DNA of 64,000 nt from Candidatus Anderseniibacteriota bacterium (GCA_046350855.1 JAXLZM010000002.1:14103-78102), one strand, 5' to 3'. Counted from the first letter of the stretch, positions 856-35,612 are shown. Notes: generated by a model not told the origin, from the sequence alone. Made by a program: numbers and translations.

Positions 856-886
<31 letters not shown>

Positions 887-2121: not shown

Positions 2122-2141
2122 AGCGAAATTCCTTGTCGGGT

Positions 2142-3403: not shown

Positions 3404-3461
<58 letters not shown>

Positions 3462-3475
3462 TTGGCTGTTCGCCA

Positions 3476-3523
<48 letters not shown>

Positions 3524-6613: not shown

Positions 6614-9442
6614 GTGACTTCCCGCACATACCGCCAAACACGCGGAAAGACGTCTCAGCCGATTATTTCGCGCTACGGACCGGTAATTCTGGCCTGCTCT
6701 ATGACCTTGGCGGTAGTACTAGTAACGGTAGCCTTAACCTCCCAAGAAAAGTTCAGCCGAGCCTCCTTTAACGGCGCGGCAACCCTGACTTTTACCGAGG
6801 AGTTTGATGCCACCACCTATAGGGACGTTGCTAACACCGATCTCAACTGGAACACGGCTGCGAGCCGTCTCGAGCTCAACCGCGACGCCGGCACGATCGA
6901 TGAGTTTGATCTTACGACCGCCGGTATCGAGACGCTCACCAGCACCGGTGGGTTTGCTGAGACAACTACGGCCCACTCGTTAACTCTCGACTCCCAAGAC
7001 CGACAGATCGTCGGTTTTATTTGTGATGCGGGAGGCGGCATTGGTGGAGCCTGTGTCTCGCGCTGGAATGGTTCAACCATGACCGCGATGGATGGAGTGA
7101 CGCCCGGGGCAGAGCTCGTAAGCGCTGACGACACAGCCCATGTCACGTATACCGTCAGCATCGATCTCAACCCAGTCACCGGCCAACCCTGCATTGCCTA
7201 CGACCAAGAAAACGCCGGGGGTAAGAGCGACGTCAAAATCTCCTGCTATACGGGAAGTGCCTGGCAAGGGCAGCTCTCTGGGGTGCCTGGTACGCCGGAC
7301 AATGTCACCGCCACAGCGGGCGCTAACGAAAACAATCCGAGTATCCGTATCGATTCCAACGGTCGGGCCGTTGTGGCTTACCAAGATGACGCGGGGTTCT
7401 CGGCTGACGTGTACGTCTCCCATAATACCGGCGCAGCGTATGAGGGGTACTTGGGCGCCTCGGACGATCAACTCACCAGCGCCGCTGATTACGAAGCTAC
7501 CCCGTTCCTCCGTCTTGATTCGAGTGATCAGCCCAACGTGGTCTACGGTGATACGACGGACACGGAAATTTACTTTACTCGCTTGGCAAGTGGCGCGTAT
7601 CGAAAACTCGATGGAACGGCTGGTGTGCAGGATATTTCTAACGGGGCGGGTAACTCGACATTTGGTGATATGGCACTGCGGGCTAACGACAACCCCGTCT
7701 TTGTTTGGACCCAGAACATTAGCGCCCCCAACCGACAAATCTGGTACACGGAATGGAATGGGGCCAGCCTCGTCCAATCGGATGGTTCAACCGCTGGACC
7801 GGAGGTCATCGTCACCGGCAACTCCAATGGCAATAGCTCACTCGATCTCGCCTCGGGCAACGAGCCTGCCCTCTGTTTTCTTAAAGCCGGAGTAGATGGT
7901 GGTGCCGCCCCAGATGTGTACTGTATTCGACACGTTGGCGGAACCGGTTGGGTGCACGTTGATGACCGCGCAACCCTGGGCCACCACAACGTCTCCAACT
8001 CCAACGCCATCTTTAATGGCAACCCAACCATCAAGCTGGACTCCTTTGACGATGTCAACCTGGTCTACCAAGAGGAGGTTAGTGGCAGCAACGACCTCTT
8101 TGGCATGGTCGTCGTGCGGCCGCGTATCAACGGCACCGCCCGCTCGACCGCGGTCGACAGCACGAGCGACAACATTACAGCCGCCACTTTGACCGACACC
8201 GAGACCCTCAATGGTGGAACCGACTCCTATAGCGTAAGCAACGATTGCAGCACCTTTGCGGCGGCGACGCCTGGTTCGCCCGTAACCTTTGCGACGACCG
8301 GTTCGGCCTTGTGCTGGCAAGTCGACTCTAACCGCGCGACCGACCCCCGCCGCTCGCCCACCATCGACACGATCAATCTCGAGTACGTGACTCAAGCTAC
8401 CCCCGAGCCCGAGCCAGAGCCCGGCAATGAAGTAATCCGTGTCGAAGGCGACAACCCTACCGACCAATCGATCGAAGTCTCCCAACAACGCTTTACGGAT
8501 GGGTCGGCCAACATTGCCTTTATCGCACGTAACGAACTTATGTCAGATGCCTTTGTCGGTACGACCCTCACGACCGCTTTTAATGGTCCGCTCTTGCTCA
8601 ATGATGTCGAGCACGCTAACCCGAGCATCATAACCGAGCTCCAGCGTGTCTTGGTCGATAACGACCAACCAATTTATCTCCTGGGCCGTGAGCGTGCCCA
8701 AACCGAGCAGGTCAAAGCCGAGCTCGAGGCCGCAGGCTTTACCAACATTGGCCGCTTGGGCGGAATTAATCGCAATGAGACGGCTGAGATTATCGCTAAC
8801 CATCTGACCGACAACAATAAAGTCGGCAGCAAGCTAGCCCTGACCGAAAACACCAGCTTGGTCGATGCTTTGAGCTACGGCGCCATCGCAGCCAATATCT
8901 CAGATGACAAAGTAGACCCGATTTTGATCACCGATCGGGCCAATCGGACCCTCAACGAGTTTGCCGATCGCTTTATGCAAAACCACACCCAGTTTACCTC
9001 ACTCGAAATCGTGGGTGGTTCGGCCGCCGTTGATGAGACGATGGAGCAAACCCTCAGCAGCAAGTTCCCCAATCTTACAACCATCACGCGCCAAGGCGGG
9101 GAGAACCGCTTTAAAACCAACATTGGTTTGGCTGAGACGTACTTTGCGACCCCGGTCACTATCGTGGTCGCTAGTGGCGAGCGCAAAGATATTCCAGGTG
9201 CACGCACAGTGAGTACCAAGCCACAGATTTCTGCGGACCAGTTCTTCTATGCACTCTTGCTGGCGGGTGGACTGGCCGCGGACAACAATGCGCCACTCAT
9301 CATTACGCAAACCGCAACCCTCCCAACCGAGGCGGGCGACTACATCTCCGATCACGCCGCCACGATTACCACGGCGATCATTGTCGGCACGACCGACCAG
9401 GTTAGCCAGGCCGTCCAAGACGAGATCGAGAGTAGTATTTAG
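6614..9442 (+). CDS. Large secreted or cell-surface protein (942 aa): N-terminal signal anchor, beta-rich region, PEPEPEP linker, three C-terminal cell-wall-binding (CWB2-like) repeats.
   Basis: Hydrophobic N-terminus (ILACSMTLAVVLVTVAL). Repeats of the form ...NDQPIYLLGRERAQTEQVKAELEAAGFTNIGRLGGINRNETAEIIANHL..., similar to the repeats in the 53456..55579 protein. GTG start as given by the ORF track; an in-frame ATG at 6701 is an alternative start. Confidence 0.6.
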   Translation: MTSRTYRQTRGKTSQPIISRYGPVILACSMTLAVVLVTVALTSQEKFSRASFNGAATLTFTEEFDATTYRDVANTDLNWNTAASRLELNRDAGTIDEFDLTTAGIETLTSTGGFAETTTAHSLTLDSQDRQIVGFICDAGGGIGGACVSRWNGSTMTAMDGVTPGAELVSADDTAHVTYTVSIDLNPVTGQPCIAYDQENAGGKSDVKISCYTGSAWQGQLSGVPGTPDNVTATAGANENNPSIRIDSNGRAVVAYQDDAGFSADVYVSHNTGAAYEGYLGASDDQLTSAADYEATPFLRLDSSDQPNVVYGDTTDTEIYFTRLASGAYRKLDGTAGVQDISNGAGNSTFGDMALRANDNPVFVWTQNISAPNRQIWYTEWNGASLVQSDGSTAGPEVIVTGNSNGNSSLDLASGNEPALCFLKAGVDGGAAPDVYCIRHVGGTGWVHVDDRATLGHHNVSNSNAIFNGNPTIKLDSFDDVNLVYQEEVSGSNDLFGMVVVRPRINGTARSTAVDSTSDNITAATLTDTETLNGGTDSYSVSNDCSTFAAATPGSPVTFATTGSALCWQVDSNRATDPRRSPTIDTINLEYVTQATPEPEPEPGNEVIRVEGDNPTDQSIEVSQQRFTDGSANIAFIARNELMSDAFVGTTLTTAFNGPLLLNDVEHANPSIITELQRVLVDNDQPIYLLGRERAQTEQVKAELEAAGFTNIGRLGGINRNETAEIIANHLTDNNKVGSKLALTENTSLVDALSYGAIAANISDDKVDPILITDRANRTLNEFADRFMQNHTQFTSLEIVGGSAAVDETMEQTLSSKFPNLTTITRQGGENRFKTNIGLAETYFATPVTIVVASGERKDIPGARTVSTKPQISADQFFYALLLAGGLAADNNAPLIITQTATLPTEAGDYISDHAATITTAIIVGTTDQVSQAVQDEIESSI

Positions 9443-9629
9443 ACGGCTATCTAGCTCCAGCACGTGGGTGAACTTGCTTTTACCCGCCGATTTTTTTAGT
9501 ATCAGCGCAGTGTTCTTTATAGTCAGAAATGGCCGATCACCCCTTTGAGGGGAGACCGGCTGTTTCGCTTTTCCAGGTGCTAGACAAAGCCCGACTTGAC
9601 GTGGTTCTCCCAGTAGGATAGCCTCCTCG

Positions 9630-9740
<111 letters not shown>

Positions 9741-9749
9741 TATGAAAGA

Positions 9750-9776
9750 ACCGCCCCCGAAGGGTGGTTTTTTCTT
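9750..9776 (+). terminator. Intrinsic terminator after the 5S rRNA.
   Basis: ccgccccc-gaa-gggtgg hairpin followed by ttttttc. Confidence 0.55.
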
Positions 9777-9811
9777 TACAAAAAAGGCCGACCTAGTTGC
9801 TCTAGGTCGGC
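9776..9811 (-). terminator. Intrinsic terminator for glnII (minus strand).
   Basis: 10-bp stem gccgacctag/ctaggtcggc preceded on the plus strand by an A6 run, which reads as a T-run after the hairpin on the minus strand. Confidence 0.6.
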
Positions 9812-9831
9812 ACAGTAGGTGGTCCTCGGTT

Positions 9832-10899
9832 CTACCAGTTGTACTGCTTGGGATCAAATCCCTCTCCGCAGATCGTGTCGAGCAAAGCCGTGCACACCTT
9901 GTAGGGGTCTGCGTTGGCGGCTGGGCGACGATCCTCGAGGTACCCGTAGGTATCGCGAACAACGCCGAGAGGAATCCGCACGGAGGCACCCCGGTCACCC
10001 TTGCCCCAGCGGAACTGCTCGATCGAGCAAGTCTCGTGGAGTCCGGTCAGGCGCTTGTCATTACCTCGGCCATAGACCGCAATGTGCTGAGCGTGACGCT
10101 TTTCCAGGCTACGGCAGGCCGCTTCGATAACCGAGAGACCATCCTTTTGACGCATCTCCTGAGTCGAGAAGTTGGTGTGTGCTCCGGCTCCGTTCCAGTC
10201 GCCCTCGACCGGTTTGGGTGAGAGCTTGACATAGGCCCCATGCTTGGCCGCGATCCGATACAGGAGCCAACGACAGAGCCAGAGATGGTCCGCGACCATG
10301 AGGGGGTTCTGGTGGCCGACCTGAAACTCCCATTGGCCCGGCATGACCTCGGCGTTGGTACCGGCGATCAGCAAGTCAGCGTCCAGGCAGGCCTTGGTAT
10401 GCTCCTCGACGATCTCTGTCCCGAACACTTCGTCGTAGCCGACCCCACAGTAGTACCCACCCTGTGGCTCGGGGTAGCCCTCGGGCGGAAATCCCAGTGG
10501 ACGCCCCTTCTTAAAGAAGGTGTACTCCTGTTCGATCCCGACCCATGGCACACTCTCGCGATACTTGTAACAAGCCCCCTCCAGGGGCCTACGCGTGTTG
10601 GACTTGTGCGGCGTTAGCACCTTATCGAAGTTGAGCACCTCACAGAGCACCAGGACATCCGCCCCTCCCCGCAGTGGATCGGGAACGACGGTCATTGGCT
10701 TGAGAACCCGATCCGAGTTGGCCGTGTCGGCCTGGTACGTGGAAGAGCCGTCGAACCCCCACTCCGGTAGGCGCTCCTTGTCCGAGCTAGCACTGACGAT
10801 CTTGGTTTTGGAACGAAGCTTGGCGGTGTCGCGCTCGTTTTTTTCCTTGTCGAGCACTTTACCGCCATCGATCCAGATATATTCCGCGCGAAATCTCAC
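9832..10899 (-). CDS. glnII: Glutamine synthetase type II (GSII, eukaryote-like), 355 aa.
   Basis: N-terminal EYIWIDG motif and ~350-aa length typical of GSII, plus overall GS catalytic-domain similarity. Confidence 0.85.
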   Translation of the reverse strand: MRFRAEYIWIDGGKVLDKEKNERDTAKLRSKTKIVSASSDKERLPEWGFDGSSTYQADTANSDRVLKPMTVVPDPLRGGADVLVLCEVLNFDKVLTPHKSNTRRPLEGACYKYRESVPWVGIEQEYTFFKKGRPLGFPPEGYPEPQGGYYCGVGYDEVFGTEIVEEHTKACLDADLLIAGTNAEVMPGQWEFQVGHQNPLMVADHLWLCRWLLYRIAAKHGAYVKLSPKPVEGDWNGAGAHTNFSTQEMRQKDGLSVIEAACRSLEKRHAQHIAVYGRGNDKRLTGLHETCSIEQFRWGKGDRGASVRIPLGVVRDTYGYLEDRRPAANADPYKVCTALLDTICGEGFDPKQYNW

Positions 10900-11906: not shown

Positions 11907-12304
11907 GCGATCGGGCTCGTCAGGCCGAGTCGTTTTATCAGGAGGCCCGTAGCCTCATGTCCCAAGCCAACGACAAACTCACCTCTTTGGCCGTGTTTGT
12001 AGCGGGGATTGGATTTACCGCGGCAGAACTCTTTGGCATCGAGCGCTTGGCCAGTTTTGAGCGCTATTTGCTTCTGGCCGCCCTCCTACTCAATCTCATC
12101 TCGGCCTGTTTAGGGGTCTGGGTCACCTTGCGGGTTAATGATTTTCTCAACTCGACCGGCGAGGTCCTCTCGAGTAGTTCTCCCGACAGCCAATTGGCGC
12201 AAGATTTTGAACCCTGGCAGTTTAAGATGCAACTCGCCACCTTTGTCCTGGGCCTGATCGCTCTGATCGGCCTGGTCTCGATCCGGCTAGTGAGCGCCCC
12301 ATGA
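11903..12304 (+). CDS. Hypothetical small membrane protein (133 aa).
   Basis: Several predicted TM helices. Start overlaps the upstream stop (ATGA), and its stop overlaps the start of the next ORF. Confidence 0.5.
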   Translation: MSDRARQAESFYQEARSLMSQANDKLTSLAVFVAGIGFTAAELFGIERLASFERYLLLAALLLNLISACLGVWVTLRVNDFLNSTGEVLSSSSPDSQLAQDFEPWQFKMQLATFVLGLIALIGLVSIRLVSAP

Positions 12305-14559
12305 CCGCTCCGACTAGTGGTTCACCCTGGTTTACAAGCACCGCGGACAAGCAGCGGTACCCCACCCTGACCGGCAGTAAACGCGCCGAGGTCGTGGTTG
12401 TAGGTGCCGGAATTGCGGGCTGTCTGACGGCCTGGCGTCTGGCTGAACTCGGCGCGCAGGTCGTGTTGCTCGAGGCCAACCACGTTGCCACGGGCGACAC
12501 AGGATTTACTACCGCCTTTGTGACGCGCGTACCCGATACTGCACTGGCACCGTTAGCAAAGCGCTACGGCGAACGCTTTGTCGAGCGTCTCTTTGAGGCC
12601 AATGCCGAGGCGCAACGCTACCTGCGCGAGCTGGTCACCAAGCAACGACTCGACTGCGACTGGCACGAGTGCCGTTCCTTTATCGTTGAGTTTGGACAGA
12701 GCAGTGCGGCTCTCGATCATGAGTGGCAGATTTTGCAGCAGGTAGAACCTCGCTCCCACCGCGCTACCCCCGAGGAGCTCAAAAAAGCCGTGCCGTCCGC
12801 CAACCATGGCCTCGTTATCGAGCAAGAGGCGCGTTTTGACCCGCGCGCGTTTTTGCTCGGTCTCCTCGCCACCCCGACCGGCAGCACGATCGCTGTTCAC
12901 GAACAGTCCGCCGTGACTGATTTTACGGTCGATGGCTTGGGCGTCACGGTCAAGACCGAGCAGGGTGAGATCAAGGCTGACAGAGTCATTTTTACTACAG
13001 GCCTCCCTAACCCAGGGTTATTTGAACTGCACCACCTCTTTACGCCACGTAAAACTTTTGCGCTCCTCGCTCAGTATGCGCGCCTCCCAATGAGCGACGA
13101 CTTGGTTTGGGACACCTCCGACCCGTACTTTTACCTACGTACCCTCAAGGGTCAACTCATGTTGGGTGGGGCCGACACACCCCTTGGTAACACCAGCGCC
13201 GACCCCAAAGCCTCGTACGCCAAACTGGAGCACTTTTTAGAGCGGCGCTTTGCGGGCCAGCACCAAGTCACCGCGCGCTGGTCGGGCACTCTTTTGTATA
13301 CGAGTGATGGATTGCCGTACGCCGCCGTCCACCCGCACTATCGGGGCCGCGTCTTAGTAGCCTGCGGGTTTGCCGGCAACGGGATGGTGATGGGGACGGC
13401 TGCCGGCCTGCTCCTGGCCGAGCTCGCTCTCGAGCACAAATCCGCCACCACTGAGCGCGCTGATCTTTTTGCCTTTGCTCGCACCCACGCCAGTATCCCT
13501 GCTCCCCAAAAAGAGTCGAGCGCACCTGCGGCGGCGGTAGTGGCCTCTGGCGGCAGACTACAGATCGGTGTTCTGGCGGCCAAAATTCTGCTGCCGGTGA
13601 TCTATGTGATCGCACTGGTGGCACCTGCTCTCGTCTTTTTTACCCAACGCAACGGTTTTGGCTTTATCAGCGCCGCACCCGATCTCAAGACGCTCAGCCT
13701 ACTGCTCTTTCCACTGGTAGGACTCTATGCCTTTACCCTGGTGTGGGCCCAAGTGATGCTGGGGTCCGGCATGCCGCTCTGGCGACGAGCCTACCCCTGG
13801 ATCGAAAAATTCCACCGGGTCGAGGGCGTCTTTGTGTTGCTTTTTGCGGGCCTACATCCAAGTCTGATCTTTTTTGCCTACGGAGTGGACTACTTCCACT
13901 TTCCGTTTGTTACCCCGGACCACCGCATCTTTGCTTGGATGGGGGAGTTCCAGCTCACTTTGATCATCGTCACGGTGCTCACGGCACTGCTACGCAAATC
14001 CAAACGACTCCAAAAAGTGTGGCGCTACATCCACTGGGCCAACTACGTGGTCTTTACCTCGGCCTGGATTCACTCCTGGTTTTTGGGATCGGACGTACGC
14101 ACGACCTCGCTTAAGTACCTCTGGCTCTTTTTTGGAGCAAGCGTTGTAGTCTCCTTTGTCTTACGGATCGCACGCGGGATCAAAAATAAGCGCGCCGCTC
14201 AAGCGGGTCCAAGTACGGGCGTGGGGGGAACCACAGCAAAAGCCGCTGGCCTGGGCCACTTTGTCCCGGTCGTGGCCGCGGCCCAGGTGCCCGACCAAAA
14301 ACCGCTCTGTGTCACGGTCAACAAGCAAGCCATCGCCCTCTACAAAATCAATGGGCGCTTTTTTGCCACGACTAACACCTGCTCCCACCAAGGCGGCCCG
14401 CTCTGCGAGGGCCAACTGCGCGACGGGGTTGTGCAGTGCCCCTGGCACGGCTCCCGCTTTAACGTCAAAACAGGCGCGGTGGTGGGCGGCCCTGCAGAGC
14501 GGGCCGTCACGGTCTACCCCACGCGTGTGCGCAACGGCCAAGTAGAAATACAGGTCTAG
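12301..14559 (+). CDS. Three-part fusion protein (752 aa): N-terminal FAD-dependent oxidoreductase (DAO-like), central ~6-helix transmembrane region with conserved His, C-terminal Rieske [2Fe-2S] domain.
   Basis: Dinucleotide-binding motif VVVVGAGIAGCLTAWRLAELGAQVVLLEA. Hydrophobic helices at aa ~420-640 (e.g. IHWANYVVFTSAWIHSWFLG). Rieske boxes CSHQGGPLCEG and CPWHGSRFN. Confidence 0.7.
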   Translation: MTAPTSGSPWFTSTADKQRYPTLTGSKRAEVVVVGAGIAGCLTAWRLAELGAQVVLLEANHVATGDTGFTTAFVTRVPDTALAPLAKRYGERFVERLFEANAEAQRYLRELVTKQRLDCDWHECRSFIVEFGQSSAALDHEWQILQQVEPRSHRATPEELKKAVPSANHGLVIEQEARFDPRAFLLGLLATPTGSTIAVHEQSAVTDFTVDGLGVTVKTEQGEIKADRVIFTTGLPNPGLFELHHLFTPRKTFALLAQYARLPMSDDLVWDTSDPYFYLRTLKGQLMLGGADTPLGNTSADPKASYAKLEHFLERRFAGQHQVTARWSGTLLYTSDGLPYAAVHPHYRGRVLVACGFAGNGMVMGTAAGLLLAELALEHKSATTERADLFAFARTHASIPAPQKESSAPAAAVVASGGRLQIGVLAAKILLPVIYVIALVAPALVFFTQRNGFGFISAAPDLKTLSLLLFPLVGLYAFTLVWAQVMLGSGMPLWRRAYPWIEKFHRVEGVFVLLFAGLHPSLIFFAYGVDYFHFPFVTPDHRIFAWMGEFQLTLIIVTVLTALLRKSKRLQKVWRYIHWANYVVFTSAWIHSWFLGSDVRTTSLKYLWLFFGASVVVSFVLRIARGIKNKRAAQAGPSTGVGGTTAKAAGLGHFVPVVAAAQVPDQKPLCVTVNKQAIALYKINGRFFATTNTCSHQGGPLCEGQLRDGVVQCPWHGSRFNVKTGAVVGGPAERAVTVYPTRVRNGQVEIQV

Positions 14560-14586: not shown

Positions 14587-16035
14587 ATGCAACGCTTTCT
14601 GCGGATTTTCCGCCCACTCGCCAACCCCCACTTCCGATCCGCGCCTAGGCGCTGGTCTCGTGCGCGTCGTACTACTGCCGGGCGCGCACTACGCTTACTG
14701 GTGGTTCTGCTTTTGCCAACGATCTTGTCGGCTTGTGCTAGTCCGCAGGGCCAGCCACTCCACCTCACCTGGTGGAACGTCTTTGACGACCCGACCGTCT
14801 ACCAAGACATGATCAAAACCTACGAGGAGGACCACAACGTCGACATTGAGCTCGTGACCTTCTCCTACGCCGAGTATGAGCAAGAACTGGTGCGCTCGCT
14901 CGCCGCTGGGACCGGCCCTGACATCTTTACCATTCAAAATACCTGGCTGCCCGAGCACCGCGATTTGATTGCCCCCGTGCCCGTCGCTGAGGACTTTACC
15001 AGCGCCACCCCGGATGAACTCAAGGCCATTCAACCCCGCGTCGAGGCCCTGCCTGGATTACGCAGTTTTGTTGATACCTACGTCCCCACCGTCTCGCAAG
15101 ATTTTGTCTCGGAAGGCCGCATTTACGCCATCCCGCTCTACGTTGATAGCTTGGCGCTCTACTACAACAAGGACTTACTCAACTCCGCCAACCAGCAGGT
15201 TCCAACCACCTGGGACGAATTTGTCAAAGTAGCTAATGCACTTACCACGCGCGACGCCAATGGCCGCATCACCCGCTCGGGAGCCGCCTTGGGTGCCGCG
15301 ACTAACATTAATCGTTCGACCGATATCCTCTCGGCCTTGATGCTCCAAAACGGAGCGAGCCCCGTCGACACCGAACGTCAGTTTGCCGCCTTTGATCGCG
15401 GCGAGGAGCGAGCGGACGGCAGCGAACTCAACCCTGGCTTGGATGCCCTCAAGTTTTATACGGATTTTGCGATCGATTCGAGCGATCATTTTACCTGGAG
15501 CCTGGACCCCGCTATCTGGTACTCGATCGACAACTTTGCCTCAGGCGAGGTAGCCATGATGCTCAATTACTCGCACCAGGTCGACGAGGTACGGAGCAAA
15601 AATGCCAAGCTCAACTTTGGAATTGCCCGACTACCTAACCCAGCCGGCGCGCGGTTCTACCAGACCTATGCCAATTACTGGGGGCAGACCGTCTCCAAAG
15701 CGAGCCCCAACGTCTTAGATGCGTGGGAATTTATCAACTATCTGAGCCGGGACGATAATAACCTGACGTATTTGCAAAACGCCCATAAACCACCCGCCAA
15801 ATTGGCTCAAATTCCCGCCTTTGAAAACGATTTAGATCTCGGTGTCTTTGCCGATCAAGCCGCCGTGGCCAAGAGCCTCTATACCCCGGACATCAACCTG
15901 ACGGAGACGGTCCTTGCAGCAGCGATCGAAGATGTTATCCTCAACCGACGCCCGGCTCTAGACGCGCTCCAGGTCGCTGCCAGCCAAATCACACAGCGCT
16001 TGCAGAGCCGTGCCTTTCCACCCACAGGCATTTAA
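14587..16035 (+). CDS. Extracellular solute-binding lipoprotein of an ABC transporter (482 aa).
   Basis: Lipobox LLPTILSAC. Family 1 SBP-like sequence. RBS aaggag 6 nt upstream of the ATG. Confidence 0.7.
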   Translation: MQRFLRIFRPLANPHFRSAPRRWSRARRTTAGRALRLLVVLLLPTILSACASPQGQPLHLTWWNVFDDPTVYQDMIKTYEEDHNVDIELVTFSYAEYEQELVRSLAAGTGPDIFTIQNTWLPEHRDLIAPVPVAEDFTSATPDELKAIQPRVEALPGLRSFVDTYVPTVSQDFVSEGRIYAIPLYVDSLALYYNKDLLNSANQQVPTTWDEFVKVANALTTRDANGRITRSGAALGAATNINRSTDILSALMLQNGASPVDTERQFAAFDRGEERADGSELNPGLDALKFYTDFAIDSSDHFTWSLDPAIWYSIDNFASGEVAMMLNYSHQVDEVRSKNAKLNFGIARLPNPAGARFYQTYANYWGQTVSKASPNVLDAWEFINYLSRDDNNLTYLQNAHKPPAKLAQIPAFENDLDLGVFADQAAVAKSLYTPDINLTETVLAAAIEDVILNRRPALDALQVAASQITQRLQSRAFPPTGI

Positions 16036-16060: not shown

Positions 16061-16471
16061 ATGATCGAGAACGTAAAGGACCAGGTTTTGTTGCTGGCCA
16101 CTACGCTAAGTCAACGTAACCCCTTTCCTACCGGCGGTGGAACTGGTAATCCCCCGACGGGAGGTGGCACCGGCAACCCTGTTAACTGTCCAGCAGGGCA
16201 GGTGTGTCCGCCGAGCAATTTACCAACCGGGTCCCTTGAGGGGATCGTCACTAACGTTATCAACTGGGGTTTGGGCATCGCCGGAACCGTAGCGGTCTTG
16301 ATGTTGGTTGTCGGTGGCTTTATGTACATCACCGCTGCCGGGGACGAACGCCGCCTCGATCGCGCCAAGGCTATCGTACGCGGAGCGATTACGGGGGTCA
16401 TTATTATCTTGATTTCCGCTATAATAGTTAACACACTTAATTACGCCCTTTTTAGGGGCACCACACCATGA
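16061..16471 (+). CDS. VirB2/TrbC-like T4SS-pilin-type small membrane protein, paralog 1 (136 aa), with an N-terminal Gly/Pro-rich repeat (PTGGGTGNP x2).
   Basis: Conserved core VTNVINWGLGIAGTVAVLMLVVGGFMYITAAGDERRLDRAKAIVRGAITGVIIILISAIIVNTLN forms a two-helix hairpin shared with the next two ORFs. Confidence 0.6.
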   Translation: MIENVKDQVLLLATTLSQRNPFPTGGGTGNPPTGGGTGNPVNCPAGQVCPPSNLPTGSLEGIVTNVINWGLGIAGTVAVLMLVVGGFMYITAAGDERRLDRAKAIVRGAITGVIIILISAIIVNTLNYALFRGTTP

Positions 16472-16821
16472 TCAAAACTCTTCTTTTAGCGCAGCAATAT
16501 ATTTCTCCGCCTTCGAGCGTAAACTTGCCAGGCAGTAGCGGTGGAGTAACCATTACGACCCCGATCGTTAACGTTATCAACTGGGGCCTCGCGGTTGCAG
16601 GCGGGGTCGCGATCTTGGTACTGATTATCAGCGGCTTTTTGTACGTGACCGCGGCTGGTAACGAGCGCGGTCTTGAGCGCGCCAAAACCGGCATCAAGGG
16701 CGCTATCACGGGCATTATCATCATGCTCTTGGCCGCCATCATTGTGAACACGATCAACTTTGCCTTGACCCGCGGGGGTGGCAGTGGGACTTCTACACCA
16801 CGTACGATTTTTACCCCCTAG
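16468..16821 (+). CDS. VirB2/TrbC-like T4SS-pilin-type small membrane protein, paralog 2 (117 aa).
   Basis: Core IVNVINWGLAVAGGVAILVLIISGFLYVTAAGNERGLERAKTGIKGAITGIIIMLLAAIIVNTIN. Start overlaps the paralog 1 stop. Confidence 0.6.
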   Translation: MIKTLLLAQQYISPPSSVNLPGSSGGVTITTPIVNVINWGLAVAGGVAILVLIISGFLYVTAAGNERGLERAKTGIKGAITGIIIMLLAAIIVNTINFALTRGGGSGTSTPRTIFTP

Positions 16822-16837
16822 AGCAGGCCGTCACAGT

Positions 16838-16849
16838 TCTGCTATACTA
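16838..16849 (+). promoter_or_regulatory. Extended -10 promoter element (cTGcTATACTac) upstream of pilin paralog 3.
   Basis: 12-mer identical to the one at 11159..11170. The predicted TSS leaves a ~45-nt leader containing the RBS aaaaggagc. Confidence 0.45.
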
Positions 16850-16898
16850 CTTGCACGGTTTTCCACAATAAGCTAAAAAGGAGCAACCTAACACACCT

Positions 16899-17255
16899 AT
16901 GAACAAACTCACTTCAAAAGTCATCGCAAAAACCAGCGCCGTTGCCGGTGCAGTCGGTAGTCTCTTAGTTGCTCGCAGCGCCTGGGCCCAAGTCGGCGTG
17001 CCGCGTATTCCGCAGCTTCGCAATGACACCATCTTCGACACGATCATCGCGGTCGTGACCTGGGGTCTTGGGATCGCCGGTGCGGTGGCAGTGCTCTACC
17101 TGATCGTTGGTGGGTTCCTCTACATTACCGCCGGTGGAGATGAGGGTCGGATCGAAAAAGCCAAGAACACGATTAAGAACGCCATCATCGGTATCGTCGT
17201 GATCTTGCTGGCCTTAGTCATCGTGCTCACCCTCAACGAGGTCTTGGCACCCTGA
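16899..17255 (+). CDS. VirB2/TrbC-like T4SS-pilin-type small membrane protein, paralog 3 (118 aa), with a cleavable signal peptide.
   Basis: Signal peptide MNKLTSKVIAKTSAVAGAVGSLLVARSAWAQ. Core VVTWGLGIAGAVAVLYLIVGGFLYITAGGDEGRIEKAKNTIKNAIIGIVVILLALVIVLTLN. Confidence 0.6.
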   Translation: MNKLTSKVIAKTSAVAGAVGSLLVARSAWAQVGVPRIPQLRNDTIFDTIIAVVTWGLGIAGAVAVLYLIVGGFLYITAGGDEGRIEKAKNTIKNAIIGIVVILLALVIVLTLNEVLAP

Positions 17256-17432
17256 TCGGTCAGTCCCAAAAGGACGAACTTTTTAAGCAAAAGAAAAAGA
17301 CCACCAGGATACAACCGGGTGGTCTTTTGTAATTGGGTCGCTAATCCGCGACCGTGAAGGTGCAAACGTGCAAAGGAACTAGAGTCTAAACAGTAGTGCC
17401 TGGGACGGACCGAGGCGCTTGTCTTTCTCTTT

Positions 17433-18917
17433 CTAGGAGTGGGTTTCGTGTGGCACGGTCCGCTCCACAACCGTGCTGGCTTCCTGGTCGCTACAGCCGG
17501 ACATCAAAAGCCAGTAGCCGTCGACATCGTTTCCCCCCAGAGGACGCCAGTCACGATAGGGATCAGCGGCAGTCGTAAAGCGGGGATGCCGCTTGTAGTA
17601 CTTGACCGGTCCCGATGCGTCCACAATCCAGGTGTATCGGTCATCCGCCTTGAGATTGACATACAAGTAGTGCCCCGGGGGAGCCGAGAGATTGGTGAGC
17701 TTCTTGGTGAAGCCCGCCTCTCCCCGTGGACTGAGAGAGGTCTCTTTCTCAAGGGGTGTCGCCTCACAGCCAAAGCTAGCATTTTGACACTCCTCGGGCA
17801 GAACATCCTGTCTAGTGACCCAGTACACATCCAGCTTTCCCTCCACAGGATCACAGTTACCTGCCTCAAAGTTGAATCCACTGGTGGCCAGAAGAGGCAT
17901 CTTGGGCCCTGTTCCGGCTGGAGTAACCGAATCGGCTGCACTCTCAATTGCCGTAGTGACACCAGTTCCAACCGCAACGAGCGGACGAGCCGCCCACTTT
18001 GGTAGAACCGTGTCAGCAGGAGTGTCCTTGATCCTCTTGTAGGTGGGCCAAATGGCCAAGAACAAGAGTACCACTGCCCCAAACTTGGCCAGCGATCCAA
18101 CGGGCTTGGTAGTCACCGACATCTTGAAGATGCCGCTGACCATCAGCAGGATCGCCGCTCCAATGAAGTACCATGGGGTGATGCCGTTCCAGTTGAGGTT
18201 GTTGGGAACCCGAAGTCCCATCCAGTCGAACAGGCCAAAAGCCTGTAAGACTAACAACACTACCCCGCCAATGAGACCGGCGTGAACAGCCTGCTTCATG
18301 GGCGGCGACATTGGGATGTCCTTGTAACCTACCCATACCACGGCGGCAAGGTAGAGCAACAAAACCCCAACGCGCATGCCAAAGGCAATGGGGTGTCCTA
18401 GTTGGTAGCCCTCCCAAATGATCGCGCACCAGACCAGGTGTACCGCCAGTACGCCCGCGCCATAGATACGAGCCAACTTGAGGGCGCCCGCAACTTTGTC
18501 CCAGCCGATATCCTCATCTCCGACGATCGGGATGGCGCTGCCTCGCCACACTTGGGCGATCCGCCGCATGATACCGGCCCCGAGGTTCCCGATTCCCTCC
18601 ACACCATCCAACAGAGCAGCTGCGATTGCGACCAGAATCGTCAGTTCATACAGCGCACCAACGAGGGCGATGTTGCTGACGAAGATGGCCATACAGTCGA
18701 CGGTCCATGCGACGTAGGGGAAAGCCACAAAAGCTCCCATCGACGCGAATAAGCCGAACAGATGTGCGACCAGGAAGAGAACGATGAACAGGGCGAACCG
18801 GAACATCCTCCTGACGAGGAAGGCCCAGAAATCCTGGTAGTTGGCCAAGAAGAGGTTACGAAAGAACCTCGTCAAGGCCTTGGCGTTGAAGAGCAGGAAA
18901 CGATTCCATGTGTGCAT
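17433..18917 (-). CDS. Polytopic integral membrane protein (494 aa, about 9 TM helices) with a C-terminal soluble Cys-rich domain. Possible VirB6/TrbL-like T4SS channel component (speculative).
   Basis: Many hydrophobic helices. RBS ggagg 8 nt upstream of the ATG at 18917. Divergently adjacent to the pilin-like paralogs. Confidence 0.5.
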   Translation of the reverse strand: MHTWNRFLLFNAKALTRFFRNLFLANYQDFWAFLVRRMFRFALFIVLFLVAHLFGLFASMGAFVAFPYVAWTVDCMAIFVSNIALVGALYELTILVAIAAALLDGVEGIGNLGAGIMRRIAQVWRGSAIPIVGDEDIGWDKVAGALKLARIYGAGVLAVHLVWCAIIWEGYQLGHPIAFGMRVGVLLLYLAAVVWVGYKDIPMSPPMKQAVHAGLIGGVVLLVLQAFGLFDWMGLRVPNNLNWNGITPWYFIGAAILLMVSGIFKMSVTTKPVGSLAKFGAVVLLFLAIWPTYKRIKDTPADTVLPKWAARPLVAVGTGVTTAIESAADSVTPAGTGPKMPLLATSGFNFEAGNCDPVEGKLDVYWVTRQDVLPEECQNASFGCEATPLEKETSLSPRGEAGFTKKLTNLSAPPGHYLYVNLKADDRYTWIVDASGPVKYYKRHPRFTTAADPYRDWRPLGGNDVDGYWLLMSGCSDQEASTVVERTVPHETHS

Positions 18918-19102
18918 TATTTTTTCCTCCGGACCTGGTCGATCAGGTTGAACGACCGAGGCAGCCGAATGGGTGCACGCACCAGTTGATTGGGAGAGCC
19001 GCCAGTCGTAGTGTCTGGCAGTAAGCCGGCAGGTTCAGGCGGGACACCTTGAGCGGTTGTTTCTTGGGCCGGCGCCACATCGATCACCATGCCATTGTGG
19101 TG

Positions 19103-19390
19103 TCACGAAGAAGGGTTATTCTTGACCTTTTGCGCTTCCAACGAAAGAAGCTGCCCAGGGTCGAGAGAGCGCCAGCAGCCACTCGAGGAATTAAATCGAT
19201 CCTCCTCGCGCTGCCGAGCCTGTTCCTCCGTCATGGGCCGGTAGGAGCCGGAGTTGAAGATGTGTCCGTCCAGTGCGGTTGGAGCAGACGCAGCTTGTGC
19301 TGGTCCGTAGCAGAGTTCAGCGGGTTTTAAGCGAAGGCCTCGAACTCTCGCTTGTGTCATTCTCACCCAAAGTCCATCTTCATCCTCCAA
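19103..19390 (-). CDS. Hypothetical small protein (95 aa; TTG start, or 19351 if the in-frame ATG MTQARV is used).
   Basis: ORF with a GGAGG motif immediately upstream. Overlaps the upstream ORF by 11 nt. Weak coding evidence. Confidence 0.3.
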   Translation of the reverse strand: MEDEDGLWVRMTQARVRGLRLKPAELCYGPAQAASAPTALDGHIFNSGSYRPMTEEQARQREEDRFNSSSGCWRSLDPGQLLSLEAQKVKNNPSS

Positions 19391-19805
19391 AAAGGCCTCG
19401 ACGGATCTTCCTTAGACTTCTCCGGTCTTCTCCTCTTCTTTGCTCACTTGCCATTGAACAACGAAGTGAAGAATGCCGGGAAAGCTCCCGCTTGGCTTCT
19501 TTGCGATTGTCCTGTTCGTTGTTGGGCAGTTTGTCGGTCGCAGCGGTTTCACCGCCGAGCGTACCAACGATAAAGCTGGCAATGACGGCGGCGTTGTCCT
19601 TGACGACCTTGGCACTCTTGGGTCCAAGATCGGCTACGAACTTCTTGATCTTGACGCCGTGCAACTGCCAAAAAGCCAAAGCCGTGACAGCACCTCCCAG
19701 GTCGAGAGACCCTAGTAAAAAGATCTCGCGAACCATTTTGAGTACCTGGTATGCCTCAGCCAAGCGAAAGGCTGCGTTGAATGCGTCCGCTCCCTTATTC
19801 TTCAT
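19380..19805 (-). CDS. Hypothetical small protein (141 aa) with a basic C-terminus.
   Basis: ATG at 19805 preceded by aaggag (5-nt spacing). Protein begins MKNKGADAFNAAFRLAEAYQVLKMVREIF. Confidence 0.4.
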   Translation of the reverse strand: MKNKGADAFNAAFRLAEAYQVLKMVREIFLLGSLDLGGAVTALAFWQLHGVKIKKFVADLGPKSAKVVKDNAAVIASFIVGTLGGETAATDKLPNNEQDNRKEAKRELSRHSSLRCSMASEQRRGEDRRSLRKIRRGLFGG

Positions 19806-19942
19806 GAATCTCCTTGCGCTCCTAAGGGGAGCGAGTTGGGTCGGGCAACGAACCCGACGTAGTACGTTTGAATAGATTGGGAATGTCCGGTCTTGTGAGC
19901 GCCACCTAAGGCCTCTCCAAGAGCCCGACAAACTACCACAAT

Positions 19943-19971
19943 TTGAACAAAAAGTCAAGGTTCGCTAGAGT
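19943..19971 (+). promoter_or_regulatory. Sigma-70-like promoter TTGAAC-17-TAGAGT upstream of tRNA-Leu and gdh.
   Basis: -35 ttgaac at 19943..19948, 17-nt spacer, -10 tagagt at 19966..19971. Confidence 0.45.
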
Positions 19972-20009
19972 GCCCCCAGTGGCCGTAATCGGTGTAAAAA
20001 AGCCGCTTT

Positions 20010-20096
20010 GGGCGAGTGGCGGAATGGCAGACGCGCCAGGCTTAGGACCTGGTGGTTGCATAAACCATGGAGGTTCGAGTCCTCTCTCGCCCACCA
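20010..20096 (+). tRNA. tRNA-Leu (anticodon UAG), class II; CCA encoded.
   Basis: Acceptor gggcgag/ctcgccc. Anticodon arm ccagg-cTTAGga-cctgg. Long variable arm tggttgcataaaccat. T-loop ggttcgagtcc. Confidence 0.88.
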
Positions 20097-20167
20097 GCAA
20101 TTTTTCTGAGGCAATACAGGGTGAACACCTAGCTTTGCCGAGCCCGGGCCCGTACAATACGGGGACT

Positions 20168-21442
20168 ATGCCCACATCCTCACGCAGCCAGTCCCAGCAA
20201 GAAAACGCCTTTACCAACGCCCTGACCCAGCTGCACGCTGCAGCCGAGGTGGCCGGGCTCGATCCGGACATACTGACGCAGCTCGAGCGCCACGACCGCA
20301 TCGTGGAGGTGGCCTTGCCAGTGCGTCGAACCAGTGGCCCCAACAAGGGACACATCGAGGTGTTGACCGGCTTTCGCGCCCAACACAACAATGCGCGCGG
20401 ACCCTACAAAGGTGGGATTCGCTACCACCAAAATGTTTCGCTCGATGAGGTTAAAGCACTCTCGCTCTGGATGTCGCTCAAGACTGCCGTTGCCGATATT
20501 CCTATGGGTGGTGGCAAAGGTGGCGTGATCGTTGATCCTAAAACCCTCAATCAGGCAGAACTCGAAGCCCTCTCGCGGGCCTATGCCCGTGGGATCGCCG
20601 CGGTGATTGGTCCTGAGGTAGACGTACCAGCCCCGGACGTCAACACGACGCCCGCTATCATGGCTTGGATCAGAGATGAGTACGAGAAGATCACGGGCAC
20701 GACCGCCCCCGGTGTTATCACCGGTAAACCGGTCGAGGCCGGCGGGTCGCAAGGTCGGGACACGGCTACGAGCGAAGGGGCTTTTTATGTCTGGGAATAT
20801 GCCGCAGCCAAGCTCGGGATGCAGCCGGCCCAAACACGTGTGGTCGTAATCGGCTTTGGCAACGCCGGGTTCTTTTTTGCCAAACGCCTACATGCAGCTG
20901 GCTACAAGGTGATTTCGGTCTCGGATTCTAGAGGGGCCGTGATCGATCCGGCCGGCCTCGATCCCGACCAAGTCATGGCGCACAAAAAGAAGACGGGGTC
21001 GGTTGTGGGGTTCAACCGGTTACCTAAGCAGACCCTCGAGGATCAAATTGCGTTGGAGGCAGAACTGCTCGCCCCGGCCGCCCTAGAAAATCAAATCCAC
21101 AAAGACAACGCGAGTTTAGTTAAGGCGCGCGCAATTATCGAACTCGCCAACGGACCGGTCACGCCTGAGGCGGATACGATTTTGGACGGTAAACAAATCC
21201 CGGTTATCCCGGATATTTTGGCTAATGCCGGTGGGGTCACCACCAGCTACTTTGAGTGGTACCAAAATCAGCACGATGAGCGCTGGACCCGCGAGCAAGT
21301 CTTTACCAAACTCAAAGCCAAGATGCATGCCGCCACCCAGGCGGTTTGGAGTATGTCCGAGGGTAAAAAAATCTCGCTGCGGCGCGCGGCGGGTGTGGTG
21401 GCGGTTCAGCGCTTGGCCGAGGCCATGCAAAAACGAGTCTAA
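20168..21442 (+). CDS. gdh: Glutamate dehydrogenase (Glu/Leu/Phe/Val dehydrogenase family), 424 aa.
   Basis: Motifs GPYKGGIRYH and PMGGGKGG. The ORF-track start at 19943 would overlap the tRNA; the start was moved to the first ATG after the tRNA (MPTSSRSQ...). Confidence 0.88.
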   Translation: MPTSSRSQSQQENAFTNALTQLHAAAEVAGLDPDILTQLERHDRIVEVALPVRRTSGPNKGHIEVLTGFRAQHNNARGPYKGGIRYHQNVSLDEVKALSLWMSLKTAVADIPMGGGKGGVIVDPKTLNQAELEALSRAYARGIAAVIGPEVDVPAPDVNTTPAIMAWIRDEYEKITGTTAPGVITGKPVEAGGSQGRDTATSEGAFYVWEYAAAKLGMQPAQTRVVVIGFGNAGFFFAKRLHAAGYKVISVSDSRGAVIDPAGLDPDQVMAHKKKTGSVVGFNRLPKQTLEDQIALEAELLAPAALENQIHKDNASLVKARAIIELANGPVTPEADTILDGKQIPVIPDILANAGGVTTSYFEWYQNQHDERWTREQVFTKLKAKMHAATQAVWSMSEGKKISLRRAAGVVAVQRLAEAMQKRV

Positions 21443-35604: not shown

Positions 35605-35612
35605 GGAGACCC

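What the first reader, a model, noticed from the sequence alone, without database searches (positions are those of the whole stretch)
16061..18917. Three tandem VirB2/T4SS-pilin-like paralogs next to a large polytopic membrane protein
Three consecutive small ORFs share a conserved two-helix core (INWGLGIAG.VAVL.LIVGGF.YITAAG.ER...RAK..I..AI.G.II.L.AAIIVNT.N) but have different N-termini. Paralog 1 carries a PTGGGTGNP repeat, paralog 3 a classical signal peptide, and paralog 3 has its own extended -10 promoter. A 494-aa ~9-TM protein of unknown family is divergently adjacent. This looks like a diversified pilin set for a T4SS, competence or host-attachment apparatus of the kind expanded in episymbiotic bacteria. 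No VirB4/VirD4 ATPase is in the window.
Basis: partly seen in the sequence, partly recalled or inferred. Interest (0 to 1): 0.55.

Follow-up and report, generated by a model that had tools for sequence, protein, structure and literature searches.

The report
Secretion-system pilin gene array in ultrasmall bacterium
Three neighbouring small genes in a tiny, probably host-dependent bacterium (Candidatus Andersenbacteria) encode pilin-like subunits of a kind already described in this bacterial group. The less expected result is that they sit in one operon with a sugar-binding-type lipoprotein in dozens of related genomes.

Summary
The three ORFs are real genes. All three score above Pfam's threshold for PF18895 (T4SS_pilin), and NCBI already names one of them "pilin". 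The window comes from a Candidatus Andersenbacteria genome (Patescibacteria/CPR), close to dnaA.

Tandem arrays of VirB2-like pilins are already published for this phylum (Wang 2023; Quinonero-Coronel 2025), so this is a new member of a known kind.

- The 494-aa membrane protein is convergent with the pilin genes, not divergent.
- It shows no detectable similarity to VirB6/TrbL.

What I add:
- The paralogs form three old orthologous groups. The third (118 aa) has a signal peptide, its own conserved extended -10 promoter and a nearly invariant mature sequence, so it looks like the major subunit. The first two have variable tails and no classical signal peptide.
- A family-1 solute-binding lipoprotein gene lies directly upstream on the same strand in 54 of 69 related loci. 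In some lineages that module continues into VirB6-like, PrgI and VirB4 genes.
- The 494-aa protein belongs to a very small, fast-evolving, clade-restricted family that is always convergent with the array.

No VirB4 is in the window. Its presence elsewhere in the genome rests on published class-level data only.

The parts
14587..16035 (+). Family-1 extracellular solute-binding protein, a probable lipoprotein (lipobox ILSAC). It ends 25 nt before pilin 1 and is the likely first gene of the operon.
   Evidence: Pfam SBP_bac_1 2.5e-33 and SBP_bac_8 1.3e-31. NCBIfam gives only sub-threshold matches to carbohydrate-binding proteins. A same-strand homologue lies within 300 nt upstream of the pilin array in 54 of 69 non-duplicate evaluable loci. 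No ABC permease or ATPase is in the window.
16061..16471 (+). Pilin paralog p1 (136 aa). It has a short LLAxxLSQ-type N-terminus without a classical signal peptide, a PTGGGTGNP x2 repeat, a CPAGQVC motif, and then the two-helix pilin core.
   Evidence: PF18895 at 35.1 bits against a gathering score of 26.6. Orthologues occupy the first array position in relatives. Two hydrophobic helices flank a basic loop.
16468..16821 (+). Pilin paralog p2 (117 aa). Its start overlaps the p1 stop (ATGA), which suggests translational coupling. It has no classical signal peptide and a G/S/T-rich C-terminal tail.
   Evidence: PF18895 at 36.3 bits; sequence; orthogroup alignment.
16840..16848 (+). Extended -10 promoter element TGCTATACT for p3. 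It is followed by a conserved CACAATAAG motif and the ribosome-binding site AAGGAG (16878-16883).
   Evidence: Conserved in 7 of 8 loci within otherwise variable intergenic DNA. Not found by the -35/-10 consensus scan.
16899..17255 (+). Pilin paralog p3 (118 aa). It has a Sec signal peptide (predicted cleavage AWA|QV) and an 88-residue mature helical hairpin, and is the candidate major subunit.
   Evidence: PF18895 at 59.8 bits. PF04956 TrbC at 23.5 bits (below gathering score) over the full length. NCBIfam NF045849 'pilin-like conjugal transfer protein' at 39.8 bits against a cut-off of 40. AlphaFold2 hairpin H45-77/H82-116 with pLDDT above 90. The mature sequence is nearly identical in genomes whose GDH is only 75-81% identical. 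NCBI name: 'pilin'.
17295..17328 (.). Bidirectional intrinsic terminator hairpin shared by the convergent pilin operon and the 494-aa gene.
   Evidence: -19.4 kcal/mol on both strands, z = -5.8 and -5.4, with U runs on both sides. A hairpin at the same place in relatives keeps pairing through compensatory changes.
17433..18917 (-). M494: a polytopic membrane protein (about 7-8 helices; conserved N-terminal 200 residues with invariant D104, E107 and GxDK) plus a C-terminal beta-rich domain bracketed by two invariant cysteines. It belongs to a clade-restricted, fast-evolving family of unknown function.
   Evidence: Only 5 other representatives among 1.84 billion proteins, at 24-39% identity. All are convergent with a pilin array. 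A remote member occurs in L001/L002 (hhalign 97%). No Pfam, PDB or Foldseek match. Not VirB6-like. Identity to relatives is 25-36% where neighbouring genes are 60-92%.
18917..19958 (-). Region upstream of M494 holding three short ORFs (192, 95 and 57 aa). The stop of the last one overlaps the M494 ATG. Relatives have one 209-400-aa gene here, so this may be a degraded or mis-assembled partner gene.
   Evidence: ORF list. Partner genes in relatives. No detectable similarity to the window.

Best explanation
The locus is the pilin module of a Patescibacteria-type (monoderm, MPF-FATA-derived) type IV secretion system, placed in the chromosomal core about 9 kb from dnaA.

Shown:
- Three genes encode PF18895 (VirB2/TrbC-like) two-helix proteins.
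- They follow a solute-binding lipoprotein gene on the same strand with gaps of 25 nt or less.
- The last gene has its own conserved extended -10 promoter.
- A bidirectional terminator ends the unit.
- The three paralogs are old, differentiated orthologous groups.

Inferred:
- p3 is inserted through Sec, cleaved after AWA, and is the abundant major subunit.
- p1 and p2 are low-abundance variant subunits. They are co-transcribed with the binding protein and carry variable G/P/T-rich tails, and they reach the membrane without a classical leader.
- A VirB4-driven machine encoded elsewhere in the genome extracts the subunits from the membrane and polymerises them into a surface filament or conduit, which the cell uses to contact or exploit a host cell.
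- The co-encoded binding lipoprotein acts at that interface, capturing a host-derived glycan or solute or mediating adhesion.
- The convergent 494-aa protein is a rapidly diverging, surface-exposed accessory specific to this clade. It is not a core secretion component.
For: - Family assignment: PF18895 above the gathering score for all three proteins; TrbC sub-threshold. NCBIfam pilin-like conjugal transfer protein at 39.8 against a cut-off of 40. Confident helical-hairpin model. Basic inter-helix loop.
- Source organism: Candidatus Andersenbacteria; the third gene is named 'pilin' by NCBI.
- Literature: 441 VirB2 arrays of 2-11 genes in 383 Patescibacteria assemblies, with the secretion system often near dnaA. 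The six-pilin array is essential in S. epibionticum.
- Operon anatomy.
- Orthogroups and rates: the mature part of p3 is nearly invariant; p1 and p2 are 47-78% identical to their counterparts.
- Link to a secretion system: homologous binding-protein/pilin arrays continue into VirB6-like (PF04610, E 1e-5 to 1e-3), PrgI (PF12666) and VirB4 (P-loop_TraG, AAA_10, TraC) in L040, L058 and L083. They sit beside the same genes in L086 and L090.
- VirB4 is listed as present in 6 of the 9 Andersenbacteria-class assemblies I could read in Table S1 of PMC12102498.
Against: - No VirB4, VirD4, PrgI or VirB6 homologue is in the 64-kb window. None is within 10 kb of the array in any Andersenbacteria-like locus.
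- Only 5 of 83 loci have VirB4 within 10 kb.
- I could not examine the rest of this genome.
- No solved VirB2 or TraA pilin is recovered by sequence profile or by Foldseek, because a helical hairpin is not discriminating.
- p1 and p2 lack the signal peptide typical of VirB2-type propilins.
- No pilus of this kind has been seen in any Patescibacterium ('potential to elaborate conjugative pili').
Confidence: 0.6

Rival explanations
1. The PF18895 proteins here are not pilus subunits. They are small two-helix membrane proteins that work with the co-encoded orphan solute-binding lipoprotein, for example as its membrane dock or as an unconventional uptake or scavenging device, independently of any type IV secretion ATPase.
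For: - The tightest and most widespread linkage is to the binding protein (54 of 69 loci at 300 nt or less; 64 of 69 at 651 nt or less), not to VirB4 (5 of 83).
- The binding protein has no ABC permease or ATPase partner in the window.
- The neighbours in most loci are housekeeping genes such as NTP transferase, ComM, LspA and FtsH.
- A pilus has never been observed.
Against: - In L040, L058 and L083 the same binding-protein/pilin module runs straight into VirB6-like, PrgI and VirB4 genes.
- In S. epibionticum the pilin array lies inside the essential secretion-system cluster without any binding protein.
- The family shows sub-threshold but consistent similarity to TrbC/VirB2 and to a Mycoplasma ICE pilin-like protein.
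- Two-helix proteins are an unlikely substitute for ABC permeases.
Confidence: 0.2
2. The 494-aa protein is the extremely diverged VirB6-type assembly platform for these pilins. That would explain why it always accompanies the array in this clade.
For: - It is polytopic, with about 7-8 helices and an extracytoplasmic domain.
- Every detectable family member is next to a pilin array.
- In canonical clusters a VirB6-like polytopic protein is the immediate neighbour of the array.
- The literature notes VirB6 is 'scarce or absent' in some classes, 'suggesting extreme sequence divergence'.
Against: - No PF04610 hit in any of the six members, even at E up to 5.
- hhalign against 12 Patescibacterial VirB6-like proteins gives probability 1%.
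- Foldseek finds no TrwI/VirB6 match, although the model is poor (pLDDT 56).
- It is half the size of those proteins (494 against 770-1075 aa) and convergent rather than co-oriented or divergent.
- All carriers belong to one narrow syntenic clade, so adjacency may be inherited rather than functional.
- It evolves far faster than a core machine part would be expected to.
Confidence: 0.1
3. The 494-aa gene and its upstream partner are unrelated cargo in a variable, tRNA-Leu-adjacent slot, such as a surface-variation or defence-type islet. They merely abut the pilin operon.
For: - The slot between the pilins and tRNA-Leu/gdh holds undetectably related genes in L003/L004, L015, L016 and L017.
- Identity is 25-36% where neighbouring genes are 60-92% identical.
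- The partner gene is only 48% identical between two genomes whose pilins are 98-100% identical.
Against: - The same two-gene architecture (a polytopic protein of about 420-530 aa plus a partner, both convergent with the array) recurs in most of these loci: the window, L001/L002, L007, L009, L011 and L014-L017. L003/L004 carry a possibly split three-gene version.
- The gene is under purifying selection (dN/dS 0.15).
- No integrase or repeats flank it. No defence-system library search was run on it.
Confidence: 0.3

Closest known systems
VirB2-like pilin arrays of Patescibacteria (Wang et al. 2023, Cell 186:4803, SEML1_0014-0019; Quinonero-Coronel et al. 2025, Microb Genom 11:001409)
   Same: Tandem same-strand PF18895/PF04956-type genes in a CPR chromosome near the replication origin. 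The paralogs are sequence-diverse but structurally alike. No relaxase context.
   Different: - Only three genes, and they are more alike (40-60% identity) than the published average of 25% (maximum 54%).
- No virB4 within at least 16 kb on one side and 47 kb on the other.
- Preceded by a solute-binding protein gene, which those papers do not mention in the text I could search.
- Followed by a convergent protein from a clade-specific family.
TrbC/VirB2 conjugative pilins of Gram-negative systems (Pfam PF04956; A. tumefaciens VirB2, RP4 TrbC)
   Same: A long Sec-type leader on p3, a mature hairpin of two hydrophobic helices of about 70-90 residues, and a basic inter-helix loop. The N- and C-termini of mature p3 (QV...LAP) are strictly conserved.
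   Different: - Scores are below the PF04956 gathering threshold.
- The host is a monoderm.
- No VirB5, VirB7, VirB9 or VirB10 is present.
- p1 and p2 have no leader.
- Whether the pilin is cyclised or processed as in VirB2/TrbC is unknown; that comparison rests on my own knowledge and was not tested.
Mbov_0395 family pilin-like conjugal transfer protein of Mycoplasma ICEs (NCBIfam NF045849)
   Same: A small two-helix protein of a monoderm MPF-FATA-type transfer system. p3 scores 39.8 bits against a cut-off of 40.
   Different: It falls just below the cut-off. It is chromosomal and not on an integrative conjugative element, and it occurs in triplicate with a solute-binding protein.
TrbL/VirB6 polytopic channel and platform proteins (PF04610), including the 770-1075-aa Patescibacterial versions next to pilin arrays
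   Same: M494 is a polytopic membrane protein encoded beside a pilin array.
   Different: No sequence, profile or fold similarity was found. It is half the length, convergent in orientation, restricted to one clade and very fast-evolving.

Membership tests
Pfam PF18895 T4SS_pilin | Whole-protein score at or above the gathering score (26.6 bits) | tested here: met
   35.1, 36.3 and 59.8 bits for p1, p2 and p3. The precomputed Pfam tag on homologues is also PF18895.
Pfam PF18895 T4SS_pilin | Two hydrophobic helices joined by a short basic loop (helical hairpin) | tested here: met
   Hydropathy shows two helices with 4 K/R in the loop for each paralog. AlphaFold2 model of p3: H45-77, a 4-residue turn, H82-116, pLDDT above 90.
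VirB2/TrbC pilins (PF04956) | Score at or above the gathering score (27.9 bits) | tested here: not met
   19.2, 14.8 and 23.5 bits. The p3 match covers model positions 1-97 of 98, at E 6.5e-5.
VirB2/TrbC pilins (PF04956) | Cleavable N-terminal signal peptide on the propilin | tested here: inconclusive
   p3 has an n-region, an h-region and an AWA|Q site, read by eye from the sequence. p1 and p2 have only a short LLAxxIAQ-like N-terminus. No dedicated signal-peptide predictor was available.
Type IV secretion system pilus subunit (functional class) | A VirB4 ATPase encoded in the same genome | not testable with these tools
   - None in the window.
- The rest of the 229-kb contig and of the genome could not be reached.
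- Literature Table S1 lists VirB4 as 'Yes' in 6 of the 9 Andersenbacteria-class assemblies read.
Type IV secretion system pilus subunit (functional class) | Homologous arrays physically clustered with VirB4, VirB3(PrgI) and VirB6 genes | tested here: met
   - L040, L058, L083: binding protein, pilins, VirB6-like, PrgI, an unassigned gene, VirB4.
- L086, L090: the divergent layout seen in S. epibionticum.
- Only 5 of 83 loci show this within 10 kb.
Type IV secretion system pilus subunit (functional class) | Polymerises into an extracellular filament | not testable with these tools
   Needs microscopy or biochemistry. It has not been shown for any Patescibacterium.
Patescibacterial VirB2 array (Quinonero-Coronel 2025) | Two to eleven pilin genes in tandem or separated by one non-pilin gene | tested here: met
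   Three consecutive genes on one strand. Related loci carry arrays of 2-8.
TrbL/VirB6 (PF04610), for the 494-aa protein | Profile or fold similarity to VirB6 | tested here: not met
   - No Pfam hit for any of the 6 members at E up to 5.
- hhalign against 12 Patescibacterial VirB6-like proteins: probability 1%.
- Foldseek against PDB: best E 0.011, TM below 0.2, no VirB6. The model is poor, pLDDT 56.
ABC-transporter substrate-binding protein, cluster of SBP_bac_1 | Domain match, plus adjacent permease and ATPase genes | tested here: inconclusive
   The domain match is met. There are no partner permease or ATPase genes in the window and none among the conserved neighbours in 83 loci. NCBIfam equivalog scores are far below their cut-offs.

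The most novel reading that the evidence does not exclude
Across several Patescibacteria classes, the type IV secretion pilin array forms a fixed operon with an orphan carbohydrate-type solute-binding lipoprotein. This suggests the pilus or conduit is coupled to capture of a host-derived molecule, or to glycan-based host recognition. That would be a concrete handle on the unknown function of this essential secretion system. In Andersenbacteria the module has separated from the ATPase genes and has gained a hypervariable, surface-exposed membrane protein (the M494 family) that may set host specificity.
Probability: 0.25. Interest if true: 0.7.

Novelty: new member of a known kind. Interest (0 to 1): 0.38.

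Why it matters
[quoted passage not shown] The system is essential in the one species tested, it lacks a relaxase, and it is the only monoderm system with pilin genes.

This window adds no new kind of element. The comparative work around it gives three testable leads:
- A division of labour between one invariant, separately promoted pilin and variable partner pilins.
- A widely conserved operon link between the pilins and an orphan solute-binding lipoprotein, which fits the 'uptake conduit' idea.
- A fast-evolving membrane protein that always accompanies the array in one clade.

If the binding protein proves to be part of the apparatus, it would point to what the machine binds or imports.

Tried and rejected
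- **VirB6 identity of the 494-aa protein.** Pfam on six members, a PDB sequence profile, AlphaFold2 plus Foldseek, and hhalign against 12 VirB6-like proteins were all negative. The AlphaFold2 model is too poor (pLDDT 56) for the fold search to count as strong evidence.
- **Structural confirmation of the pilin fold against solved VirB2/TraA pilins.** Foldseek and the PDB profile returned only generic helical hairpins, so this was uninformative.
- **Third homologue search, with the M494 family alignment.** It returned only the query itself, because the candidate list was saturated by membrane-protein words.
- **Looking for VirB4 in close relatives' complete genomes.** A metagenome scan with a five-sequence VirB4 alignment filled its top 80 with other lineages. 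None of the Andersenbacteria contigs appeared.
- **Extending beyond the window ends.** There was either no record or only 2-3-kb Logan contigs.
- **Idea that the slot downstream of the pilins holds unrelated genes in L001.** Rejected. The '901-aa' gene call is an antisense artefact, and the real gene is a remote M494 homologue.
- **Diversifying selection on the M494 family.** In the one close pair, dN/dS is 0.15. That indicates purifying but relaxed selection, not positive selection.
- **A diversity-generating retroelement near the reverse transcriptase at 43 kb.** No template/variable repeat pair was found.
Full report
**What is there**

The window comes from a Candidatus Andersenbacteria genome (Patescibacteria/CPR). 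The 494-aa protein and the third small protein both match NCBI entries from one 229-kb contig of that organism. The surroundings are chromosomal core:
- a 23S rRNA gene with a group I intron, and an unlinked 5S rRNA gene;
- yidC, jag, dnaA, dnaN and recF at 24-31 kb;
- gdh, lexA, ruvABC, clpB and hisS.

The three ORFs lie at 16061-16471, 16468-16821 and 16899-17255 on the plus strand. All three score above Pfam's gathering score for PF18895 T4SS_pilin (35.1, 36.3 and 59.8 bits against 26.6). They score below threshold for TrbC/VirB2 PF04956. The third also reaches 39.8 bits against a cut-off of 40 for NCBIfam's Mycoplasma-ICE 'pilin-like conjugal transfer protein', and NCBI already names it 'pilin'.

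An AlphaFold2 model of the third protein, built on 31 sequences, gives a signal-peptide helix followed by a confident hairpin of two long helices (pLDDT above 90). Each paralog has two hydrophobic helices and a basic connecting loop.

The 494-aa gene (17433-18917) is on the minus strand and is convergent with the pilin genes, not divergent.

**Operon anatomy**

- A family-1 solute-binding protein gene (14587-16035; SBP_bac_1) carries a lipobox (ILSAC) and ends 25 nt before p1.
- The p2 start overlaps the p1 stop (ATGA).
- A 77-nt spacer precedes p3. It contains TGCTATACT, an extended -10 element that is conserved in 7 of 8 related loci although the flanking DNA is not. A conserved CACAATAAG motif and an AAGGAG ribosome-binding site follow it.
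- Downstream of p3 is a hairpin of -19.4 kcal/mol on either strand (z about -5.6), flanked by A and T runs. It is a bidirectional terminator shared with the convergent gene. Relatives keep it through compensatory changes.
- My reading is inference: the binding protein, p1 and p2 share one transcript, and p3 gets extra transcription of its own.

**Three orthologous groups, not recent copies**

I aligned 22 pilins from 8 related genomes.

- The last gene of every array is a 118-aa protein. Its leader varies, but its mature part (QVGVPRIPQLRNDTIFDTIIAVVTWGLGIAGAVAVLYLIVGGFLYITAGGDEGRIEKAKNTIKNAIIGIVVILLALVIVLTLNEVLAP) is almost unchanged in genomes whose glutamate dehydrogenase is only 75-81% identical.
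- The first two positions hold proteins with short LLAxRIAQ-type N-termini and no classical signal peptide. Their N-tails are low-complexity (G/P/T/S-rich) and vary in length. Their C-tails also vary. In some genomes these carry cysteine-rich domains, and one is 260 aa with TGQTG repeats.
- In the window, the two copies of the PTGGGTGNP repeat in p1 differ at 8 of 9 synonymous positions. The repeat is therefore maintained at the peptide level.
- This pattern suggests one major structural subunit and two variant subunits.

**What is already known**

Pilin arrays of exactly this family are published.
- Wang et al. 2023 found six PF18895/PF04956 pilins (SEML1_0014-0019) inside the essential type IV secretion cluster of Southlakia epibionticum. 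They lie next to VirB6-like, PrgI and VirB4 genes and a few kb from dnaA.
- Quinonero-Coronel et al. 2025 searched 3,035 genomes with PF18895 and PF04956. They found 441 arrays of 2-11 pilins in 383 assemblies, pilins near virB4 in 1,135 of 1,948 assemblies, and frequent proximity to dnaA.
- A 2025 review calls these the only monoderm systems with pilin genes.

The finding is therefore a new member of a known kind.

**Is there a secretion ATPase?**

There is none in the window. I scanned every long ORF with Pfam, and a VirB4 profile built from five Patescibacterial proteins found nothing. I could not reach the rest of the genome.

Two lines of indirect evidence remain:
- Table S1 of the 2025 paper marks VirB4 as present in 6 of the 9 Andersenbacteria-class assemblies I could read.
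- I fetched 79 loci from species-representative genomes with a p3 alignment. Nearly all carry same-strand arrays of 2-8 pilins.
  - In L040, L058 and L083 the order is: NTP-transferase, binding protein, pilins, one or two VirB6-like proteins (770-960 aa; PF04610 E 1e-5 to 1e-3, best 25.6 bits against 25.9), PrgI, an unassigned gene, VirB4.
  - L086 and L090 show the divergent S. epibionticum layout.

So the module in the window is homologous to the front end of genuine secretion clusters. Still, only 5 of 83 loci have VirB4 within 10 kb.

**The solute-binding protein link**

After removing duplicate loci, 54 of 69 loci with enough upstream sequence have a same-strand homologue of the window's binding protein ending within 300 nt of the first detected pilin. 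The count rises to 64 of 69 within 651 nt. In a neighbourhood clustering, the binding protein is the most widely shared neighbour (64 loci, median 55 nt upstream, always co-oriented). An NTP-transferase is next, in 58 loci.

No ABC permease or ATPase accompanies it. By record titles, the loci span Andersenbacteria, Doudnabacteria, Saccharimonadia and unclassified Patescibacteria.

One caveat applies. The loci were retrieved with peptide patterns from p3, so this describes the p3-type array and not all PF18895 arrays. S. epibionticum has no such gene beside its array. The two key papers do not mention this link in the text I could search.

**The 494-aa protein**

- **Family size.** A full phmmer scan of 1.84 billion representatives found only five relatives (24-39% identity, 459-524 aa). 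They align from residue 3-8, so the 494-aa start is right and NCBI's 419-aa call is short.
- **Position.** All five relatives are encoded convergent with a pilin array, with a second fast-evolving gene upstream of them. The 531-aa protein at the same place in L001/L002 is a remote member (hhalign 97%, E 8e-11 over the N-terminal 165 columns). The '901-aa' gene call there is an antisense artefact.
- **Other related loci.** L014, L015 and L017 have a convergent polytopic protein of 420-464 aa plus a partner gene. L016 has a comparable convergent pair of 346 and 537 aa. L003/L004 carry three shorter convergent genes (271, 155 and 290 aa), possibly a split version. Homology is marginal or undetectable (L014 at 32%).
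- **Architecture.** A cytoplasmic N-terminus is followed by about 7-8 helices. The first 200 residues are conserved (invariant D104, E107, G138, D140). A P/A-rich linker leads to a beta-rich C-terminal domain bracketed by two invariant cysteines (C355, C475), which is probably extracytoplasmic.
- **Similarity searches.** Nothing matched in Pfam, NCBIfam, PDB sequences or Foldseek. The family is not similar to Patescibacterial VirB6-like proteins (hhalign 1%).
- **Rate.** It is 25-36% identical between genomes whose DnaA, LexA, GDH and binding protein are 75-88% identical and whose p3 is 84-92% identical. In the one close pair, dN/dS is 0.15. That is the highest in the locus but still purifying.
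- **Limits.** All carriers belong to one syntenic clade, so the constant adjacency is weak evidence of a functional tie. I treat the protein as a fast-evolving surface-exposed accessory of unknown role.

**Verdict**

The pilin interpretation is right, and the phenomenon is already described. The VirB6 suggestion is not supported, and the orientation was misread. The most useful new lead is the conserved operon of binding protein and pilins. The division into one invariant pilin and two variable ones is a second lead.

I put the probability that these genes supply subunits to a VirB4-driven apparatus at about 0.6. The main rival is a membrane-resident role tied to the binding protein (about 0.2).

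Noticed in passing
window 1-3656, 1832-2053, 2355-2819, 9631-9740: The 23S rRNA gene carries a group I intron (Rfam, 62.7 bits) and a 154-aa ORF inside the rRNA span, possibly a homing endonuclease (not checked). The 5S rRNA gene lies 6 kb downstream, separated from the 23S gene by three protein-coding genes. This is an rRNA layout typical of CPR bacteria.
   Followed up: no
window 43058-44131 (+): A reverse-transcriptase gene (RVT_1, E 3.5e-12) sits between ruvB and a VanW-domain gene. No template/variable repeat pair of 40 nt or more was found in 38-48 kb, so a diversity-generating retroelement is not evident.
   Followed up: partly
window 18917-19958 (-): Relatives have one 209-400-aa gene upstream of the M494 homologue. 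The window instead has three short ORFs (192, 95 and 57 aa; one frame change and one in-frame stop). The stop of the last one overlaps the M494 ATG. This may be a decayed partner gene or an assembly error.
   Followed up: partly
window 17433-18917 (-): NCBI annotates this gene as 419 aa (U0517_01720). Five homologues align from residue 3-8 of the 494-aa ORF, so the annotated start is probably 75 codons too late.
   Followed up: yes
window 20010-20096 and 19943-21442: tRNA-Leu(TAG) lies between the variable slot and gdh. The longest gdh ORF runs over the tRNA gene, so the real gdh start is downstream of it.
   Followed up: no
window 6614-9442 (+) and 53456-55579 (-): Two large proteins (942 and 707 aa) carry triple CW_binding_2 domains. 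They are candidate S-layer or cell-wall-anchored surface proteins. Similar giant CWB2 proteins flank the locus in relatives (L006, L009).
   Followed up: no
L001 versus L002, locus coordinates 7752-10357: Between two related JGI genomes, the synonymous divergence of the binding-protein gene (0.027) and p3 (0.021) is 5-40 times lower than that of the flanking genes (0.13-0.92). This suggests a recent recombinational sweep of the module or very strong codon-level constraint.
   Followed up: partly
L068:9812-18453 and L078:2401-11136: Two loci encode giant proteins (893-1,970 aa) that contain a PF18895-like pilin domain. No solute-binding protein lies upstream. These may be pilin-anchored surface adhesins.
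   Followed up: no
L001:10728-13433 (+): The JGI gene call of 901 aa is an antisense artefact. It lies over two real minus-strand genes: an M494-family protein and its partner.
   Followed up: yes
window 12301-14559 (+): A fusion protein (FAD-dependent oxidoreductase, ferric-reductase-like membrane domain and Rieske domain; 752 aa) lies immediately upstream of the binding-protein gene. It is syntenic in most Andersenbacteria-like loci. This is unusual redox equipment for a CPR genome.
   Followed up: no
window 35580-38694 (+): A gene for a PKD domain plus 7TM_transglut protein is followed by a sugar-transfer-associated ATP-grasp gene. This is a conserved pair of unknown role.
   Followed up: no
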